Notes under the pieces: generated by a model
Database searches by the model: none
Told to the model about the DNA's origin: nothing
The model's input: the letters and a program-made list of their open reading frames with translations, nothing else
In this document: positions 4,835 through 60,212 of the stretch, in pieces
Layout of the letters: every line of letters starts with the position of its first letter
Position numbering within the stretch: position 1 is the stretch's first letter
Translations under genes and position numbers: made by a program
Assembly: GCA_964016885.1 (NCBI GenBank)
Contig: OZ024742.1
Coordinates: forward strand, 12,834,001 to 12,898,000
Reading direction: 5' to 3'
Length of the DNA: 64,000 bases
DNA from: Eledone cirrhosa
Lineage: Eukaryota

Positions 4835-5077
4835 AGTGAACAACACAAAATATAACTACTCCATTACCAAAGGTTTATGGATCCCAGACAATATTAATAT
4901 ATGTCTGGATCGGTCATCAGACAGGAATGTCATGGATAAAAAATATGGATAAAAAATATTTCATAATTTTTATCCATGACATCTCTGCCTGATGACCGAT
5001 CCAGACATATATTAATATTGTCTGGGATCCATAAACCTTTGGTAATGGAGTAGTTATATGTTGTGTTGTTCACTTTC

Positions 5078-5078
<1 letters not shown>
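4831..5078. mobile_element. ~250-bp fold-back palindrome between (TA)n tracts; probable truncated/inverted Penelope-type pLTR with a degenerate hammerhead motif
   Basis: AGAAAGTGAACAACAC...CATGGATAAAAAAT is mirrored by ATTTTTTATCCATG...GTGTTGTTCACTTTCT. The right arm has CTGATGA, a hairpin, then TAAACC-TTT-GGTA. Confidence 0.75.
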
Positions 5079-5121
<43 letters not shown>

Positions 5122-5124
<3 letters not shown>

Positions 5125-5156
5125 GTTTCTGAATTTGTTTAGCAAGATTCTTTATC
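5122..5156 (-). mobile_element. 35-nt exact copy of the Penelope element 3' terminus
   Basis: TTCGTTTCTGAATTTGTTTAGCAAGATTCTTTATC is the reverse complement of 60642-60676 (35/35). Confidence 0.85.
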
Positions 5157-5264
5157 AAGATTCTTTATTCCATTCATGAATGGAATAGCAACTTTCTAAT
5201 TAAATAGCTCTGTTCTATACACAGAGCACTCTTTTTTCCTTTGCTTTTCCTTCGGAATTACCTA

Positions 5265-5443
<179 letters not shown>

Positions 5444-5543
5444 TTAAGATTAGTGCTCTGAAATCTTTTGCTGGACCGGCAATCGCTCTGTATAATCAGC
5501 TCCTGATTATTACTGGAATTCTATAAGAATTCAGGTTCTATAA

Positions 5544-5634
5544 TTTTCGGCAAAAGCAGGGGAGTACGTGGCTCTGATGAACGCCAACCAGCATGAAACA
5601 GACTGTCAGCTTCTCTCTCATCTTTCGCCGAAAA
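5544..5634 (+). ncRNA. Type I hammerhead ribozyme motif
   Basis: GGCT, CTGATGA (5574-80), stem II ACGC-CAACCA-GCAT (one mismatch), GAAA (5595-98), stem III ACAG-A-CTGT, GTC cleavage triplet (5605-07), AGCT. Outer helix TTTTCGGC/GCCGAAAA. Confidence 0.8.
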
Positions 5635-5944
5635 GAAGTAAGTGACATAGTTACTGCCTTAAAACTGATAGCGTATGGTCTTCTACTCTTCTAAATGTTT
5701 GTAATTAAACATATGGTATATTGGCAAATATACTATACATACATTCATATATATATATATATATATAGTATTGAAGTAAACGAGGTATCGTTTAAGGTAA
5801 TCCAAGTAGAAGTTATGAGTAATCTGTACAGTGGATGATTCTAACCTGCAGTGTTGTTTGACCCAACAACATGTTTACTTGGTTGTGGTGTTAAGATGGC
5901 CGATTTCGGACAGTTCCTAGGTAAGCAGTTCCTGGAGTATTAAT

Positions 5945-6032
5945 AATGAAGAATAACACGGATAAGTTATACAGTAGGGTTTATTCCAAGCGTTAAGCCT
6001 TACTGTATAGCCTGTCTCTGTTATTCTTCATT
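5945..6032 (+). other. ~39-bp-arm hairpin rich in G-U pairs, abutting (TA)n
   Basis: AATGAAGAATAACACGGATAAGTTATACAGTAGGGTTTA pairs with TAAGCCTTACTGTATAGCCTGTCTCTGTTATTCTTCATT. Confidence 0.65.
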
Positions 6033-6049
6033 CTTTCATTATATATATA

Positions 6050-6080
<31 letters not shown>

Positions 6081-6617
6081 CTTATATATATATATATACT
6101 TATATATATATGAGTGTATGTGTGTACATACATACACACATCAATTCATCAATAATCTGAAATCCCATCAGACAATTAATACATTTATAACTATGGAGTT
6201 GCCACAAACACGAATATATTCAGAGTCTGTTACTAAATCGTTGGGAAATCTTGCTTCAATGAACTGTTGCTTTTTCCGATGTTGTATTTTTTTTGCTTCG
6301 TTTTTGTAGTTGTTTTTCTTTGATTTTCGTATTACGATCGAGAATCCTTCGTCTACAGAGACTTGAGATCAATGAAAATTTCTAATGCCTATTATGTTGT
6401 CTATTATTGTAATATGATGATGATAATAAATATCTTAATATATCTGAATTATGTCCTCATTTATTTCACAACGAAAAAGTTCAGAAAAGAATATTATGTT
6501 TTATCAAGCGGAATAAAACAACAATTTTCTTTTTTATCTTGGTAATAACTGTTTTTTAGATATCGTTGGAAAGTATACTGAAAGTACAAAGTACAAACAT
6601 CTCTCTATTTTCTTTGT

Positions 6618-51496: not shown

Positions 51497-52800
51497 TCAT
51501 ATATCTACATGTCATATATCTACATGTCTATCATATATCTACATGTTGTCATCTATCTAGATGTTGTCATATATCTACATGTCTATCATATATCTATATG
51601 TCTATCATATATCTACATGTCTACCATTTATCTACATGTCTACCATATATCTACATGTCTATCATATATCTAAATGTTATCATTTATCTACATGTCTATC
51701 ATATATCTACATGTTGTCATATATCTACATGTTATCATATATCTACATGTTATCAAATATCTACATATCTGTCATGTATTATCTACAAGTCTATCATATA
51801 TCTACATGTCTACAATATATCTACATGTCTATCATATATCTATATGTCTATCATATATCTACATGTCCAGCATTTATCTACATGTCTACCATATATCTAC
51901 ATGTCTATCATATATCTACATGTCTATCATATATCTACATGTTATCATATATCTACATGTTATCATATTTCTACATGTTACCATACATCTACATGTTATC
52001 ATATATCTAAATGTGGTCATATCTCTACATGTTATCATATATCTACATGTTATCATATATCTACATGTTATCATTTATCTACACGTCTATCATATATCTA
52101 CATGTTATCATATATCTACATGTTATCATATATCTACATGTTGTCATATATCTACATGTTATCATCTATCTATATGTCTACCATATATCTACATGTCTAT
52201 CATATATTTATATGTTTATCATATATCTACATGTTGTCATATATCTACATGTTATCATATATCTACATGTCTATCATGTAGGATCTACAAGTCTATCATA
52301 TATCTACATGTCTACATATATCTACAAATCTATCATTTATCTACATCTTATCATATATCTATATGTTTATCATATATCTACATGTCTATCATATATCTAC
52401 ATGTTATCATATATCTACATGTTATCATGTATCTACATGTCTATCATATATCTACATGTTATCATATATCTACATGTTATCATGTATCTACATGTTATCA
52501 TATATCTACATGTCTATCATATATCTACATGTCTACCATATATCTACATGTCTATTATATATCTACATGTCTATCATATATCTACATGTTATCATATATC
52601 TACATGTTATCATATATCTTAATGTTGTCATATCTCTACATGTTATCATATATCTACATGTTATCATATATCTACATGCTATCATTTATCTACATGTCTA
52701 TCATATATCTACATGTTATCATTTATCTACATGTTATCATATATCTACATGTTGTCATATATCTACATGTCTATCATATATCTACATGTCTATAATATAC
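51497..52800. repeat. 18/19-bp minisatellite ATCATATATCTACATGT[C]T, ~70 copies
   Basis: Interspersed 18- and 19-bp units; accounts for all the I/Y/H/C-rich ORFs here. Confidence 0.96.
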
Positions 52801-52809
52801 CCACATGAG

Positions 52810-54426: not shown

Positions 54427-54446
54427 ACTACTACTACTACTACTAT

Positions 54447-54491
<45 letters not shown>

Positions 54492-54732
54492 CGTTACTAG
54501 TACTAGTACTACTATTACTACTACTACTACCAGTACAACTACCGCTACTACTACTACAACTATTACTACTACTACTACTACTACCGCTACTACTACTACA
54601 AATATTACTACTACTACTACCGCTACTACTACTATAACCGCTACTACTATAACTACCACTACTACTACTACTGCTACTAATACTACCATCACTGCTACTA
54701 CTACCACTACTACTACTACCGCTACTACTTCA

Positions 54733-54773
<41 letters not shown>

Positions 54774-54900
54774 CGCTACTACTACTACTACTGTTACTAC
54801 TACTACAACGACCACTACTACTACTACTACTACTATTATTACTACTACCATTACTACTACCGCTACTACTACTACTACTACTACTACTGCTACTACCGCA

Positions 54901-54965
<65 letters not shown>

Positions 54966-54992
54966 TACTACTATCACTACTACCTCTACCAC
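54427..54992. repeat. (ACT)n trinucleotide microsatellite, interrupted
   Basis: ~190 triplets; generates the poly-Thr, poly-Val and poly-Leu ORFs. Confidence 0.95.
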
Positions 54993-55058
54993 ACTATATT
55001 TCTTCTATTACTATAGGGTTGTTTTCAGAGAGGGTCACAGTGACCTGACGATCAACAG

Positions 55059-57250
55059 AACAACTGTTTCATTTCACCAACAGATGAACAACTGTTTCAT
55101 TTCACCAACAGATGAACAACTGTTTCATTTCACCAACAGATGAACAACTGTTTCTTTTCACCAATAGATGAACAACTGTTTCATTTCCCCAACAGATGAA
55201 CAACTGTTTCATTTCACCAACAGATGAACAACTGTTTCATTTTACCAATAGATGAACAACTGTTTCATTTCACCAACAGATGAACAACTGTTTCATTTCA
55301 CCAACAGATGAACAACTGTTTTTTTTTCACCAACAGATGAACAACAGTTTCATTTCACCAATAGATGAACAACTGTTTCATTTCACCAACAGATGAACAA
55401 CTGTTTCATTTCACCAACAGATAAACAACTGTTTCATTTCACCAACAGATGATATATATAATTTCACCAACAGATGAACAACTGTTCCATTTCACCAACA
55501 GATGAACAACTGTTTCATTTCACCAACAGATTAACAACTGTTTCATTTTACCAACAGATGAACAACTGTTTCATTTCACCAACATATGAACAATTATTTC
55601 ATTTTACCAACAGATGAACAACTGTTTCATTTCACCAACAGATGAAAAACTGATTCATTTCACCAACAGATGAACAACTGCTTCATTTCACCAACAGATG
55701 AACAACTGTTACATTTCACCAACAGATGAACAACTGTTTCTTTTCACCAACAGATGAACAACTGTTTCATTTCACCAACAGATGAACAACTGTTTCATTT
55801 CACCAACAGATGAACAACTGTTCCATCTCACCAACAGATGAACAACTATTTCTTTTCACCAACAGATGAACAACTGTTTCATTTCACTAACAGATGAACA
55901 ACTGTTTCATTTTACCAACAGATGATATATATAATTTCACCAACAGATGAACGACTGTTCCATTTCACCAACAGATGAACAACTGTTTCATTTTACCAAC
56001 AGATGATATATATAATTTCACCAACAGATGAACGACTGTTCCATTTCACCAACAGATGAACAACTGTTTCATTTCACCAACAGATTAACAACTGTTTCAT
56101 TTTACCAACAGATGAACAACTGTTTCATTTCACCAACATATGATATATATAATTTCACCAACAGATGAACAACTGTTTCATTTCACCAACAGATGAACAA
56201 CTGTTTCATTTTACCAACAGATGAAATATATAATTTCACCAACAGATGAACAACTGTTCCATTTCACCAACAGATGATCAACTGTTTTATTTTACCAACA
56301 TATTAACAACTGTTTCATTTTACCAACAGATGAACAATTGTTTCATTTCACCAATAGATGAACAACTGTTTCATTTTACCAACAGATGAACAATTGTTTC
56401 ATTTCACCAACAGATGAACAATTATTTCATTTCACCAACAGATGAACAACTGTTTCATTTCACCAACAGATGAACAACTGTTTCATTTCACCAACAGATG
56501 AACAACTGTTTCATTTCACCAACAGATAAACAACTGTTTCATTTCACCAACAGATGAACAACTGTTTCATTTCACCAACAGATGAACAACTGTTTCATTT
56601 CACCAACAGATGAACAACTGTTTCATTTCACCAACAGATGAACAACTGTTTCATTTCACCAACAGATGAACACCTGTTCCATTTCACCAACAGATGCATA
56701 ACTGTTTCTTTTCACCAACAGATGAACAACTGTTTCATTTCACCAAGAGATGAACAACTGTTTCTTTTCACCAATAGATGAACAACTGTTTCATTTCCCC
56801 AACAGATGAACAACTGTTTCATTTCACCAACAGATGAACAACTGTTTCATTTTACCAATAGACGAACAACTGTTTCATTTCACCAACAGATGAACAACTG
56901 TTTCATTTTACCAACAGATGAAATATATAATTTCACCAACAGATGAACAACTGTTCCATTTCACCAACAGATGAACAACTGTTTCATTTCACCAACAGAT
57001 GAACAATCGTTTCATTTCACCAACAGATGAACAACTGTTTCATTTTACCAAAAGATGAACAACTGTTTCATTTCACCAACAGATGAACAACTGTTTCATT
57101 TTACCAATAGATGATATATATAATTTCACCAACAGATTAACAACTGTTCCATTTCACCAACAGATGAACAACTGTTTCATTTCACCAACAGATGAATAAT
57201 TGTTTCATTTCACCAACAGATGAACAACTGTTTCATTTCACCAACAGATG
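55059..57250. repeat. 28-bp minisatellite AACAACTGTTTCATTTCACCAACAGATG, ~78 copies
   Basis: Period 28 (55059, 55087...). A recurrent short variant carries ATATATATA. Confidence 0.97.
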
Positions 57251-58171: not shown

Positions 58172-60212
58172 GGTTACACCACTGAGGTAACACCACAGGA
58201 GCATGAGGATAGAGAAAAAGCCCTCAATGCCCATATGGTGATGTGGACGAATATAATGCAGCCCAACAAAAGGACTGCCAACAACTTCCAGGCCTGGAAC
58301 AATGACGTGCCGGCGTTGTATGGGCTTCGAAAAGACCATAAAACGGGCAGTGACCCTGTCACGGGACCACCAACATGACCAGTCTGTGGAGCTAACATTG
58401 CTAGTAACTACAGACTGTCCTACTTCCTCTCCCTGATCATACGCCCCATCATTGAAATGTCCCCAGATGTATGTGACAGCACGGAGGACCTCCTCAGCAG
58501 AATCGGCGAGAGTAACCGATCTAGGGACCTAACAAACTGCATAATAGGTAGTATGGATGTTGTGTCCCTGTATCCATCTATTGACGTGGATTTTGCTGTG
58601 GAGAAATGCGTAGAAATGATCAGTGAGAGCAATGTTGAGTTCCGTGGGATTGATACCAGTGAGCTGGGACTCCTACTTAAACTTACCTACCTATAGTAAT
58701 AATTACCTAGACACATATGACCTTAGCAACTTGTGCCCTACAAGACCAGCAAGAGGCAGACCACCTACCATTACCTCAATGGCCAAGAAAACCCATACAG
58801 ATAGATGGAACGGGTGGACCAGAGCCATACTGACACCCGAAAACCACGATGAACTGAAGAAAATGATTACACATGCGGTAGGGACCAGCATAAAACTAAC
58901 CCTTAAGGAACATATGTTCAAATTTAATGGAAAAACATATGCCCAAGAGGAAGGAGCAGCCATTGGTGTTAGCATTGCAGGCGACATAGCTAACTTATTC
59001 ATGGTATGGTGGGACAGTAGACTTAAACTTAAACTTAAAGAACAATTAGAAGACGCCTTAACCCTGATAATGTACTCCCGCTACGTGATGATATAAACAT
59101 CGTAGTTAAGACACCCCCACTAGAGAACAGTCAGGAACTAGAGAAAAACATAATGGAAAGCATCCAGAAAATAGCTAACTCCATCCACCAGAGTATTAGA
59201 GTTACTATAGACTACCCAAGTAAACACCCCAACCATCGATTACCTGTACTAGACACAGAGCTCTGGTTAGATACCATTAATAACAAAAAAACAAATCCTC
59301 CATTCCCATTATGCCAAACCCATGACTTCCAAACATCTCATCCACCGAAACTCGGCTGTTTTGGACCATACCAAAATCAACATACTGATTGCGGATTTGG
59401 TACGGGTGATGAGAAGCGTGTCCTGCATATGCAACCCCGAAGAACTAGAGAGACACATACAACACTTCATCCACCGTATGCAGTTCTCTGGTTACAATCA
59501 GAGAGATAAAATCAGAGTGTATAGAGGAGCCAGAACCAAATGGGAAAAAATGGTAAATAATGACACAAATGGAACCTGCCCCTTGTATAGGAGCAAATTT
59601 TGGAATAGAATAGAAAGAACTAGGAATAAGGCTAATAGAATAAACTCATGGTATGATAGCAATAAATACCAGAGTGTAATGTTCATCGATACAACCCCTA
59701 GAGGTGAATTAGCTTACAAATTTAGAAGAGCCCTAGATAAACATAAACTCAATATTAAGATAGTAGAAAGACCAGGTACCTCCGTAAAAACACTTATTAG
59801 CAAGACATACCCTTTTCAAAGACGCCTCTGTATAGATAAGAAATGTATAACCTGTAAAATAAGCCCCCATATTAACTGTAAAACTAGAAATGTAGTGTAT
59901 AGCATAAGATGTACTGAAGGACAATGTAGAAACAAAAATATAGTGTACATAGGTGAGACAGCTCGTAGTGTAGGGGAACGGATAAATGAACACTGGCGAG
60001 ACCTTCAATATAGTAAAGAATCATCTGTACTCTACCAACATGCTAAAATAGAACATAAGGGTAAATTAGAGAACATAGAAATAAAAATAGAATCTACACA
60101 CAGAAAAGACGCAATGTTTAGACAAATCACAGAGGCAATAAACATAAAAGAATTACAACCAAAATTAAATAGAAAATATGAGCGGAACAGCAACATCACA
60201 ACTTACAATTAA
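58172..60212 (+). pseudogene. Disrupted PLE reverse transcriptase / GIY-YIG endonuclease ORF
   Basis: Motifs LYGLRKDHK, T*PVC, SMDVVSLYPSI, QEEGAAIG, RY(V)DD, LPVLD, HYAKPM, Cys-rich linker CIDKKCITC, NVVYSIRC...VYIGET...R..EH...E...LN. One stop (58376) and three frameshifts (~58690, ~59086, ~59290). Confidence 0.93.

What the first reader, a model, noticed from the sequence alone, without database searches (positions are those of the whole stretch)
5544..5634. Stand-alone, near-canonical type I hammerhead ribozyme next to a microsatellite
Seen: all core nucleotides (CUGAUGA, GAAA, GUC). Stem III ACAG-A-CUGU has a 1-nt loop and is near-palindromic. An extended stem I is closed by UUUUCGGC/GCCGAAAA and GGGGAG/CUCUCU-type pairing. 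There is no ORF nearby; it lies ~100 bp from a (CA)n(TA)n tract. Known: metazoan PLE and retrozyme hammerheads have short palindromic stem III and can cleave as dimers. Inference: a solo pLTR or non-LTR retrozyme of a family different from the 58-kb element.
Basis: partly seen in the sequence, partly recalled or inferred. Interest (0 to 1): 0.75.

Follow-up and report, generated by a model that had tools for sequence, protein, structure and literature searches.

The report
Decayed hammerhead retrozyme copy in microsatellite
The hammerhead self-cutting RNA motif is really there, but it belongs to one worn, single copy of a 316-base non-coding repeat sitting inside a TA microsatellite, likely a dead copy of a 'retrozyme' (a known parasite of Penelope-like jumping genes), so the locus itself is ordinary.

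Summary
Window 5574-5607 (+) has every hammerhead core nucleotide, a 4-bp stem II with one C-A mismatch, a near-palindromic stem III and a long stem I; cleavage would fall after C5607.

It is not stand-alone. It lies in a ~315-bp insertion (5442-5756) of a 316-nt repeat, family A: 156 exact copies of the commonest 34-nt ribozyme in the 3.0-Gb genome and 2,712 first-look candidates. The insertion sits inside the (CA)n(TA)n tract. It has a 23-nt inverted tail fragment, then 0.92 unit.

Across 79 family A copies, 3' ends are fixed next to (TA)n, 5' ends vary, 35 exceed one unit, and 15 pairs lie head-to-head. This is the insertion signature published for Penelope-like elements.

Two sister families (A2, 320 nt; B, 310 nt, 4,225 exact ribozymes in near-identical tandem arrays) keep the fold through compensatory changes, including C3-G8 to U3-A8 in the core.

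Rfam does not call it (16 bits against a cut-off of 52). No RNA data were available, so cleavage and circular RNA remain untested.

Verdict: a new member of a known kind (animal non-LTR retrozyme). The window copy is mutated, has one ribozyme, and is predicted inert.

The parts
5286..5431 (.). (CA)n microsatellite upstream of the insertion
   Evidence: Tandem Repeats Finder: period 2, 73 copies; sequence.
5431..5445 (.). Short (TA)n stretch, the upstream remnant of the target microsatellite
   Evidence: Read directly. It abuts the inverted fragment.
5442..5464 (-). Inverted 23-nt fragment of the unit's 3' end. It is the reverse complement of ..ATTTCAGAGCAC(C>T)AATC(C>T)TAATA, with its 3' end facing the upstream (TA)n.
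   Evidence: Compared with the 3' ends of other copies in the alignment; sequence. The same head-to-head arrangement occurs in 15 of 58 family A loci.
5466..5756 (+). Direct copy of the 316-nt family A unit, from unit position 209 round to 175 (0.92 unit). It is 5'-truncated and ends at ..CATTCATA followed by (TA)n.
   Evidence: BLAST on a tetramer of the unit: L001 1467-1757, 90.7% identity. L001 is window position minus 3999. It differs from the column majority at 20 of 283 columns: 12 substitutions and an 8-nt insertion.
5544..5634 (+). Hammerhead domain, comprising the outer helix, the internal loops of stem I, the catalytic core, stem II and stem III
   Evidence: HH9 model 16.1 bits at 5556-5627. 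Covariation of all helices across the sister families.
5574..5607 (+). Catalytic core from C3 to C17. The predicted cleavage is between C5607 and A5608.
   Evidence: Pattern match. One difference (A5593) from the commonest 34-nt form, which occurs 156 times exactly in the genome.
5552..5552 (+). G>A change at a CpG site that puts an A-C mismatch into the outer helix of stem I
   Evidence: majority G, context GCGAA. This position is polymorphic in the family (GA, GG, AG, AA).
5593..5593 (+). G>A change at a CpG site that creates the stem II C-A mismatch (position 11.2)
   Evidence: majority G, context GCGTG. 7 of 35 aligned copies carry A here.
5679..5686 (+). 8-nt insertion (TCTTCTAC) private to this copy
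   Evidence: Alignment of 36 copies; difference list.
5757..5767 (.). Downstream (TA)n, the other side of the target microsatellite
   Evidence: Tandem Repeats Finder merges it with the unit's TA-rich end as 5728-5767.

Best explanation
Window 5442-5756 is one 5'-truncated, mutated copy of a 316-nt non-coding repeat (family A) that carries a type I hammerhead motif and lies inside a (CA)n(TA)n microsatellite. It was likely inserted by reverse transcription using the enzymes of a Penelope-like element, and this copy on its own is predicted to be inert.

Shown here:
- the motif and its fold;
- the repeat family and its unit length;
- fixed 3' ends next to (TA)n, variable 5' ends, copies longer than one unit, and head-to-head inverted partners;
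- two sister families that keep the hammerhead and a 13-15-bp outer helix through compensatory base changes;
- many Penelope-like elements with open RT plus GIY-YIG frames in the same genome.

Inferred life cycle of the family:
1. Tandem copies are transcribed.
2. Hammerheads of neighbouring units pair through their palindromic stem III and cut after GUC.
3. The unit-length RNA is closed into a circle by a tRNA ligase.
4. A Penelope-like RT/endonuclease cuts both strands of a TA-rich target.
5. It starts copying inside the RNA at its UA-rich segment (unit positions ~175 or ~202) and runs round the template. This leaves partial multimers and inverted pairs.

The window copy has a single ribozyme, so it cannot release a unit-length RNA. 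It also has mismatches in stem II and in the outer helix.
For: Motif:
- All core letters are present; there is one pattern match in the window.

Family size:
- 2,712 first-look candidates; 40 were scored and gave 42 matches, of which 40 are 93-96% identical, one is the window itself and one is 83%.
- 156 exact copies of the 34-nt ribozyme, reversed control 0.
- Unit length 316 nt, from two ribozymes in L028.

Insertion signature, 79 copies in 58 loci:
- 3' end at unit ~175 in 41, at ~196-208 in 23, elsewhere in 15.
- (TA)3 within 14 nt downstream in 49.
- 5' starts spread over the whole unit.
- 35 copies are longer than 316 nt and continue into the same unit.
- 15 head-to-head pairs.

Sister families:
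- B: 4,225 exact ribozymes; arrays of 0.8 to 12 or more units, 99.5-100% identical to a unit from another locus; 7 of 8 fetched loci are head-to-head with their outer ends in (TA)n.
- A2: 745 matches with at most 1 mismatch.

Covariation on 87 sequences:
- 93.8% of cells are paired, against 36.9-55.0% when partners are slid.
- 17 of 33 pairs have changes on both sides.
- 210 such cells, against 63.5 in shuffles.
- The C3-G8 pair reads CG in 65 rows, UA in 21 and other in 1.

Other evidence:
- Circular folds have z-scores of -6.4 (A), -5.7 (A2) and -3.8 (B).
- Penelope-like elements: 10,597 GIY-YIG candidates, and all 150 scored passed the cut-off; RT plus C-terminal GIY-YIG frames of 515-1,096 aa.

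Literature:
- Features of animal non-LTR retrozymes (PMC7229834, Results read).
- Tandem/inverted Penelope-like insertions and the (TA)n bias (PMC8557442, passages).
- A Penelope-like protein cuts and extends both DNA strands, prefers AT-rich DNA and starts reverse transcription inside the RNA (PMC11167929, first part of the main text).
- U3-A8 core covariation and dimeric action (PMC4209133, passages).
Against: - No Rfam hammerhead model reaches its cut-off. The window copy scores 16.1 bits, the least-changed family A copies 25.1-25.8, A2 24.5, against 52. Family B gave no hammerhead hit at E up to 10.
- There is no evidence of transcription, cleavage or circles; no RNA run was listed.
- Nearest-neighbour folding of the 93-nt domain prefers another pairing (-43.9 kcal/mol) over the hammerhead shape (-31.7). 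The method cannot score tertiary contacts.
- Only 2 of 79 family A copies hold two ribozymes, so few family A loci could release a unit-length RNA.
- No Penelope-like element sharing sequence with the unit was found among 22 sampled loci.
- The covariation comes from about three lineages plus one sub-lineage, not from many independent events. Family B rows are misaligned by 3 columns in stem III and the proximal part of stem I. Many rows were picked by exact-match patterns covering the core.
Confidence: 0.85

Rival explanations
1. The copy is a solo pLTR or 5'-truncated tail of an autonomous Penelope-like element, not a separate non-autonomous element.
For: Penelope-like tails carry hammerheads, insert in tandem-plus-inverted form and favour (TA)n (PMC8557442; PMC4209133). 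Other hammerhead-bearing 3' ends next to (TA)n exist in this genome downstream of RT/EN frames. An earlier follow-up on another genome reached this verdict for a similar-looking case (e1-7908855).
Against: All 35 of 79 copies longer than one unit continue into the same 316-nt unit, not into unique or coding sequence. Sister family B forms arrays of up to 12 or more units with a 310-nt period. Only 7 of 104 retrozyme loci hold Penelope-like coding fragments within ~3 kb, and none is contiguous with a unit. The 22 sampled Penelope-like loci share no sequence with the unit apart from inserted copies.
Confidence: 0.06
2. The family spreads at the DNA level and the hammerhead is a passenger. Possible routes are satellite amplification or extrachromosomal circular DNA re-inserted at fragile (TA)n sites.
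For: No RNA intermediate was observed here. (TA)n tracts are fragile and palindromic. The arrays look like satellites.
Against: Compensatory changes keep RNA helices and the C3-G8 tertiary pair between families, which points to selection on an RNA. Fixed 3' ends with variable 5' ends, plus both-strand priming, match the biochemistry of a Penelope-like RT/EN (PMC11167929). Arrays at eight loci are 99.5-100% identical, which leaves little time for separate local amplification.
Confidence: 0.05
3. This particular copy has been taken over by the host, for example to cut a transcript that runs through it.
For: All core nucleotides are intact. Conserved intronic hammerheads exist in amniotes, and the closest Rfam model is HH9.
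Against: The copy differs from the family majority at 12 substitutions and has an 8-nt insertion. The changes include ones that weaken stem II and the outer helix: hammerhead-shaped energy is -24.6 against -31.7 kcal/mol. No gene was recognised around it. No relatives' genomes were available to test conservation of the locus.
Confidence: 0.02
4. The motif is a chance match, or the repeat is an ordinary pol III SINE.
For: 7 of 100 shuffles of the window give one pattern match. Rfam scores are below cut-off.
Against: 156 exact genomic copies against 0 for the control. Covariation with sister families. No tRNA was found by ARAGORN in 5000-6200, and there was no tRNA, 5S or 7SL hit in 5400-5800 at E up to 10.
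Confidence: 0.01

Closest known systems
Animal non-LTR retrozymes (Cervera & de la Pena 2020, PMC7229834; Li, Clavereau & Pollet 2026 preprint, 10.64898/2026.07.22.740005)
   Same: A small non-coding unit within the published 150-450 bp range, with low GC (0.39) and a type I hammerhead. It shows tandem or partial-tandem copies, a highly self-paired predicted circle, thousands of copies, and co-occurrence with Penelope-like elements.
   Different: Family A is mostly dispersed, at 0.1-1.8 units per insertion; only 2 of 79 copies hold two ribozymes. Insertions are aimed at (TA)n and often come as head-to-head inverted pairs. I did not find this described in the passages of those two papers that I searched for 'inverted', 'microsatellite' and 'TSD'. 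Expression and circles are untested here.
Newt satellite 2 and axolotl retrozyme hammerheads (HHR_Amex1/2), which act as dimers (PMC7229834)
   Same: Units of ~330 bp. Helix III is too short to close on its own and is (near-)palindromic, so it can pair between two copies. Family B also has the U-U mismatch at the base of helix II that is described for HHR_Amex2.
   Different: The sequences are unrelated as far as tested. Stem III here is ACAG-A-CUGU, an 8-bp intermolecular helix with a central A-A mismatch (duplex -6.9 kcal/mol). Sister family A2 has a perfect 12-nt palindrome (-20.1 kcal/mol).
Minimal hammerheads in the pLTRs of Penelope-like elements (Cervera & de la Pena 2014, PMC4209133; Craig et al. 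2021, PMC8557442; Frangieh et al. 2024, PMC11167929)
   Same: Tandem-plus-inverted insertion form, a TA-rich target, 3' ends set inside the template, palindromic helix III, and U3-A8 core covariation (seen here in family A2).
   Different: There is no RT/EN frame in or next to the unit. The hammerhead here is of the 'canonical' type, with a 4-bp helix II, loops placed for tertiary contact and a long stem I. It lacks the long helix II and bulged base of the minimal variants, which also occur elsewhere in this genome.
Rfam Hammerhead_HH9 (RF02275), clan CL00010
   Same: It is the best-scoring model. It shares CUGAUGA, GAAAC and GUC, the UAC in the 5' strand of stem I, and a CAA..A loop 2 (alignment).
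   Different: Scores are 16.1 bits (window copy) to 25.8 bits (best family copy) against a gathering score of 52. HH9 is a conserved single-copy intronic ribozyme of amniotes, not a repeat.

Membership tests
Hammerhead ribozyme (type I) | Conserved core C3 U4 G5 A6 N7 G8 A9, G12 A13 A14, the A15.1-U16.1 pair, and H17 not G | tested here: met
   All are present at 5574-5580, 5595-5598, 5606 and 5607. The same holds in 156 exact family copies. Family A2 has the known U3-A8 variant (PMC4209133).
Hammerhead ribozyme (type I) | Three helices around the core, supported by covariation | tested here: met
   93.8% of cells are paired against 36.9-55.0% when slid. 17 of 33 pairs have changes on both sides, in helices I and II and in C3-G8. 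Stem III shows none. Caveats: about three lineages, and the structure was drawn from family A.
Hammerhead ribozyme (type I) | Score at or above the Rfam gathering threshold of a hammerhead model | tested here: not met
   0 gathering hits in the window. HH9 scores 16.1 bits and 21.9-25.8 bits for other copies, against 52.
Hammerhead ribozyme (type I) | Self-cleavage 3' of position 17 | not testable with these tools
   This needs in vitro transcription of monomer and dimer constructs.
Animal non-LTR retrozyme | Non-coding unit of about 150-450 bp with a type I hammerhead, low GC and no LTRs | tested here: met
   Unit of 316 nt, GC 0.39. No Pfam-bearing frame nearby. The only terminal repeats come from partial tandem copies. 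PBS and PPT were not looked for specifically.
Animal non-LTR retrozyme | Occurs as tandem repeats (dimers to multimers) | tested here: inconclusive
   The window copy is 0.92 unit with one ribozyme. In family A, 35 of 79 copies exceed one unit but only 2 hold two ribozymes. Sister families B (up to 12 or more units) and A2 (320-nt period) are clearly tandem.
Animal non-LTR retrozyme | Highly self-paired predicted circular RNA | tested here: met
   Circular MFE -91.1 kcal/mol, z -6.4 against 100 dinucleotide shuffles.
Animal non-LTR retrozyme | Expressed as unit-length linear and circular RNA | not testable with these tools
   No RNA run was listed for this sequence. The four runs that were laid are contigs of unknown kind and say nothing on RNA ends.
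Animal non-LTR retrozyme | Co-occurrence with autonomous Penelope-like elements | tested here: met
   10,597 GIY-YIG candidates, 150 of 150 scored over the cut-off. RT plus GIY-YIG open frames. One degraded copy lies in the window at 58.3-60.2 kb.
Solo pLTR / tail of a Penelope-like element | Longer copies continue upstream into the element's RT/EN coding region | tested here: not met
   Longer copies re-enter the same unit. 7 of 104 loci have coding fragments within ~3 kb, and none is contiguous.
pol III SINE (tRNA, 5S or 7SL head) | A recognisable small-RNA-derived head | tested here: not met
   ARAGORN found 0 genes in 5000-6200. There was no tRNA, 5S or 7SL hit at E up to 10 in 5400-5800.

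The most novel reading that the evidence does not exclude
Sister family B shows how retrozyme tandem arrays are born. Each array pair would be made in a single insertion event: rolling-circle reverse transcription of a circular (or multimeric) ribozyme RNA, primed from both strands of a Penelope-cut (TA)n site. This would leave two head-to-head arrays whose outer ends sit at fixed template positions. With arrays 99.5-100% identical between loci, this genome would hold a currently active animal retrozyme. It would be a natural system to test that mechanism, in contrast to the 'local satellite amplification' model.
Probability: 0.45. Interest if true: 0.6.

Novelty: new member of a known kind. 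Interest (0 to 1): 0.3.

Why it matters
For the locus itself, very little. It is a worn single copy of a known type of mobile element.

For the field, the family context is useful in three ways.
- It gives three related retrozyme families in one genome whose hammerheads covary, including the C3-G8 to U3-A8 swap in the catalytic core. That is sequence-level evidence that the ribozyme is under selection in these elements.
- The insertion footprints tie animal retrozymes to the both-strand, internally initiated reverse transcription shown in vitro for a Penelope-like protein. The footprints are (TA)n targets, fixed 3' ends, variable 5' ends and head-to-head arrays.
- Rfam's hammerhead models miss all three families at their curated cut-offs.

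Tried and rejected
- **Rfam gathering search of the window:** nothing found.
- **RNA evidence:** The look-up of sequencing runs listed no RNA holder. The four listed runs (X1-X4, kind unknown, Logan contigs, one study) were laid on L002:1300-1860. They gave thousands of short repeat fragments but no usable information on RNA starts, ends or circles.
- **DNA search of the genome with one family B unit:** no match, not even to itself. The tool skips very common words, so this is not evidence of rarity. A pattern search then found 4,225 matches.
- **Search for an autonomous partner:**
  - BLAST of units A and B against 22 Penelope-like loci (12 and 10 with long frames) found only inserted retrozyme copies in L076 and L088 and short weak matches.
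  - Four blocks conserved between the families were absent from those loci except in inserted copies.
  - Another hammerhead type with a similar stem I/III, found in L093 and L094, has no flank similarity to the unit: local alignment scores 26 and 35 against a shuffled maximum of 29.
- **Identifying the animal's phylum:** the ESM Atlas look-up with a Penelope-like protein gave mixed taxa (Mollusca, Chordata, Arthropoda), so I name no taxon.
- **Earlier findings of this scan:** none by place or by sequence.
- **Pfam on six long frames of the window:** no families.
- **Thermodynamic monomer and dimer folding of the 93-nt domain:** did not recover the hammerhead shape as the MFE. I treat this as uninformative on activity.

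Full report
**1. The observation**

- CUGAUGA is at 5574-5580.
- Stem II is 4 bp, ACGC/GCAU, with a C5582-A5593 mismatch and loop CAACCA.
- GAA is at 5595-5597.
- Stem III is ACAG-A-CUGU at 5598-5606, followed by C17 at 5607.
- Stem I is built from GGCU/AGCU, an internal loop (UACGU against UCU), GGGAG/CUCUC, and an outer helix UUUUCGGCAAAAG/CUUUCGCCGAAAA.

The simple pattern occurs once in the window. Shuffles give 0.07 on average, and 7 of 100 shuffles have a match. My looser scan, which also checked structure, found no other site. The 91-nt stretch folds at -27.7 kcal/mol, z = -2.25. On these numbers alone the motif is only moderately unlikely. The family evidence below is what makes it real.

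**2. Rfam**

No family reaches its gathering score anywhere in the window. With permissive settings the best hammerhead model is HH9 (RF02275), at 16.1 bits against a cut-off of 52. E is 0.34 on 401 nt and 0.093 on 111 nt. Less-decayed copies elsewhere score 25.1 and 25.8 bits, family A2 24.5 and another family A copy 21.9. Family B gives no hammerhead hit at E up to 10.

**3. The motif belongs to a high-copy repeat**

A search of the window's own genome (3.0 Gb, 1,796 contigs) with 5500-5660 gave 2,712 first-look candidates. Forty were scored and gave 42 matches: the window itself, 40 at 93-96% identity and one at 83%.

Aligning the loci showed that homology spans window 5466-5767. It also showed that most copies are preceded by the 3' part of the same unit. 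Two ribozymes 316 nt apart in L028 give the unit length. The commonest 34-nt ribozyme occurs exactly 156 times in the genome (94 + 62), against 0 for the reversed control.

I mapped 79 copies from 58 loci on a tetramer of the unit. I dropped L034, which overlaps L033, and L053, which is the same place as L002. The results:
- 3' ends fall at unit ~175 in 41 copies, at ~196-208 in 23 and elsewhere in 15.
- 49 of 79 have (TA)3 within 14 nt downstream.
- 5' starts are spread over the whole unit.
- Lengths are 40-565 nt, median 298; 35 copies exceed one unit.
- There are 15 head-to-head inverted pairs in 15 loci.
- Ribozymes per copy: one in 63, two in 2, none in 14.

**4. Anatomy of the window copy**

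The order along the window is as follows:
1. (CA)n at 5286-5431.
2. A short (TA)n.
3. A 23-nt inverted fragment of the unit's 3' end (5442-5464, minus strand).
4. One base.
5. A direct copy from unit position 209 round to 175 (5466-5756).
6. (TA)n to 5767.

The ribozyme is therefore inside an insertion into the microsatellite, not beside it. No target-site duplication can be read, because both flanks are TA repeats.

The copy differs from the column majority at 20 of 283 columns: 12 substitutions and a private 8-nt insertion at 5679-5686. At least three substitutions are at CpG sites. These include G>A at 5593 (the stem II mismatch) and G>A at 5552 (an A-C mismatch in the outer helix). Forced into the hammerhead shape, the domain scores -24.6 kcal/mol, against -31.7 for a least-changed copy.

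No tRNA and no small-RNA family lies in it. The only frames of 80 aa or more nearby are CA-repeat artefacts and one 119-aa frame without a Pfam match.

**5. Sister families and covariation**

While mapping, I found a 310-nt tandem array (family B) next to a family A copy in L031. It is 69% identical to unit A over 303 aligned columns and has its own hammerhead.
- Its 32-nt ribozyme occurs exactly 4,225 times.
- In eight loci the arrays are 0.8 to 12 or more units long and 99.5-100% identical to the L031 unit.
- In 7 of the 8 loci two arrays meet head-to-head, with outer ends at unit 170 or 194-201 followed by (TA)n.
- In the listing, 9 of the first 10 loci on contig C1 show the order 'minus array, then plus array', and none shows the reverse.

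A third family (A2, 320-nt period, ~81% identical to A) turned up in L088. A 30-nt pattern from it matches 745 times with at most one mismatch. All 25 distinct sampled A2 copies have U at position 3 and A at position 8 of the core.

On a MAFFT alignment of 62 A, 21 A2 and 4 B domains, I counted pairs for my hammerhead structure with C3-G8 added as an extra pair.
- 93.8% of cells are paired, against 36.9-55.0% when partners are slid by 1-3 columns.
- 17 of 33 pairs have changes on both sides.
- 210 such cells, against 63.5 ± 5.9 in shuffles (0 of 500 reach it).
- The covariation score is 0.268, against 0.062-0.092 for the slid versions.
- Examples: outer helix 8-93 is GC in 56 rows and AU in 19; 14-87 is AU 55 and CG 20; stem II 42-53 is CG 53 and UA 26; stem I 32-72 is CG 72, UG 4 and UA 10; C3-G8 is CG 65, UA 21 and other 1.

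Caveats:
- The changes trace to about three lineages plus one family A sub-lineage.
- Rows L031-L060 and the A2 rows were picked by exact patterns covering the core.
- The four B rows are shifted by three columns in stem III and the proximal part of stem I.
- Stem III shows no change on both sides.
- The structure was drawn from family A.

**6. Folding of the whole unit**

As circles, the three units fold at -91.1 (A), -84.1 (A2) and -67.8 (B) kcal/mol. The z-scores against 100 dinucleotide shuffles each are -6.4, -5.7 and -3.8, and 59-65% of bases are paired. This matches the 'highly self-paired' circles described for retrozymes (PMC7229834).

Stem III cannot close on a 1-nt loop. Between two copies it gives an 8-bp helix with an A-A mismatch (-6.9 kcal/mol). 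Family A2's 12-nt palindrome gives -20.1 and family B's ACGCGU -7.5. This fits the dimeric mode described for animal type I hammerheads (PMC4209133; PMC7229834), but it is not shown here.

**7. Penelope-like elements**

- The GIY-YIG model finds 10,597 first-look candidates, and all 150 that were scored pass the cut-off.
- Ten fetched loci hold open frames of 502-1,096 aa. These fall into at least four groups that are 41-55% identical to each other.
- Four frames were scanned with Pfam. Three show RVT_1 followed by a C-terminal GIY-YIG. The longest shows RVT_1 only in Pfam, although one search placed a GIY-YIG match in its frame.
- Several end next to (TA)n, and one group carries a minimal hammerhead about 150-200 nt from its 3' end.
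- Window 58.3-60.2 kb is a degraded element of this kind, 25-35% identical to the sampled proteins. It is unrelated in DNA sequence to the 5.5-kb copy.
- No sampled element shares sequence with units A or B, so the partner is not identified.

**8. Mechanism**

Shown here: the motif, the family, the insertion footprints, the covariation and the presence of candidate enzymes.

Taken from papers:
- Animal retrozyme RNAs self-cleave and are circularised by RtcB-type ligase (PMC7229834, Results).
- Penelope-like elements insert as tandem/inverted structures, with a (TA)n bias in some clades (PMC8557442, passages).
- A purified Penelope-like protein cuts and extends both strands, prefers AT-rich DNA and begins reverse transcription inside the RNA (PMC11167929, first part of the main text).

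Inferred: this family uses that route. Its internal start points would be at the UA-rich segment of the unit, and its template would be circular or multimeric, which explains copies longer than one unit.

For the window copy I predict no activity as a source element. It has one ribozyme, weakened helices, and sits at about the median of the 36 aligned copies in differences from the majority.

**9. Rivals**

- *Solo pLTR or element tail.* This is contradicted by the re-entry of longer copies into the same unit and by the lack of adjacent coding sequence. An earlier agent's verdict of that kind on another genome prompted this test.
- *DNA-level spread.* It cannot be excluded without RNA data, but it does not explain selection on RNA pairs.
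- *Host take-over of this copy.* The decay of the copy speaks against it.
- *Chance motif or pol III SINE.* These are excluded.

**10. Comparison and verdict**

Every feature has precedent: type I hammerhead repeats of 150-450 bp, dimer-prone helix III, U3-A8 covariation, the Penelope link, and tandem/inverted (TA)n insertions.

In the two retrozyme papers I searched for the words 'inverted', 'microsatellite' and 'TSD/target site' and found no description of (TA)n-targeted head-to-head retrozyme arrays. A full-text search on Penelope-like/hammerhead/twin priming/rolling-circle reverse transcription returned no paper holding either of the last two phrases. Supplements were not opened and may bear on this.

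The finding is a correct catch of a new member of a known kind. The locus is ordinary. The sister families are the more interesting by-product.

Noticed in passing
L097-L103, L031:1-887, L074:9006-9921 (G000 contig C1, several loci): Family B is a 310-nt hammerhead unit in arrays of 0.8 to 12 or more units, 99.5-100% identical between loci. 7 of 8 fetched loci are two head-to-head arrays with their outer ends in (TA)n. The genome holds 4,225 exact ribozyme copies. It looks recently or currently active.
   Followed up: partly
L088:331-706 and L104-L128: Family A2 has a 320-nt period. All 25 sampled copies carry U3-A8 in place of C3-G8 in the catalytic core, a CAAAAA loop 2 and a perfect 12-nt palindromic stem III. 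745 genome matches with at most 1 mismatch.
   Followed up: partly
L032, L049, L051, L058 (and L040, L046, L055): A sub-lineage of family A changed stem I pair 2.2-1.2 from C-G to U-A (6 rows). Three further rows have the U-G intermediate. This is a stepwise compensatory change.
   Followed up: partly
window 58295-60176 (+): A degraded Penelope-like element. It has RT-like and GIY-YIG-like stretches 25-35% identical to sampled genomic Penelope-like proteins.
   Followed up: partly
window 51497-52807, 54427-54983, 55058-57250: Three long tandem arrays: an 18-nt unit x 70.8 copies, (ACT)n x 186, and a 28-nt unit x 79. They account for the long open frames there that have no Pfam match.
   Followed up: no
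many held loci, e.g. L011:1821, L045:818, L039 (minus strand), L097:6892, L093 (minus strand), L050:1025: At least ten further hammerhead types occur in ~0.5 Mb of sampled sequence. Several lie 100-200 nt from a 3' end that abuts (TA)n. Some have a stem III made of AUAUAUAU, and some have an unpaired base at the 5' end of a long helix II, as published for minimal Penelope hammerheads.
   Followed up: no
L009:1411-1852 (-): One family A copy begins at unit position 35, the first base after the predicted cleavage site. That is what a template cut by the ribozyme would give. It is a single case.
   Followed up: no
G000: A DNA search with one family B unit returned no match, not even to itself, because very common words are skipped. 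Repeat abundance can therefore hide a family from that search mode.
   Followed up: yes
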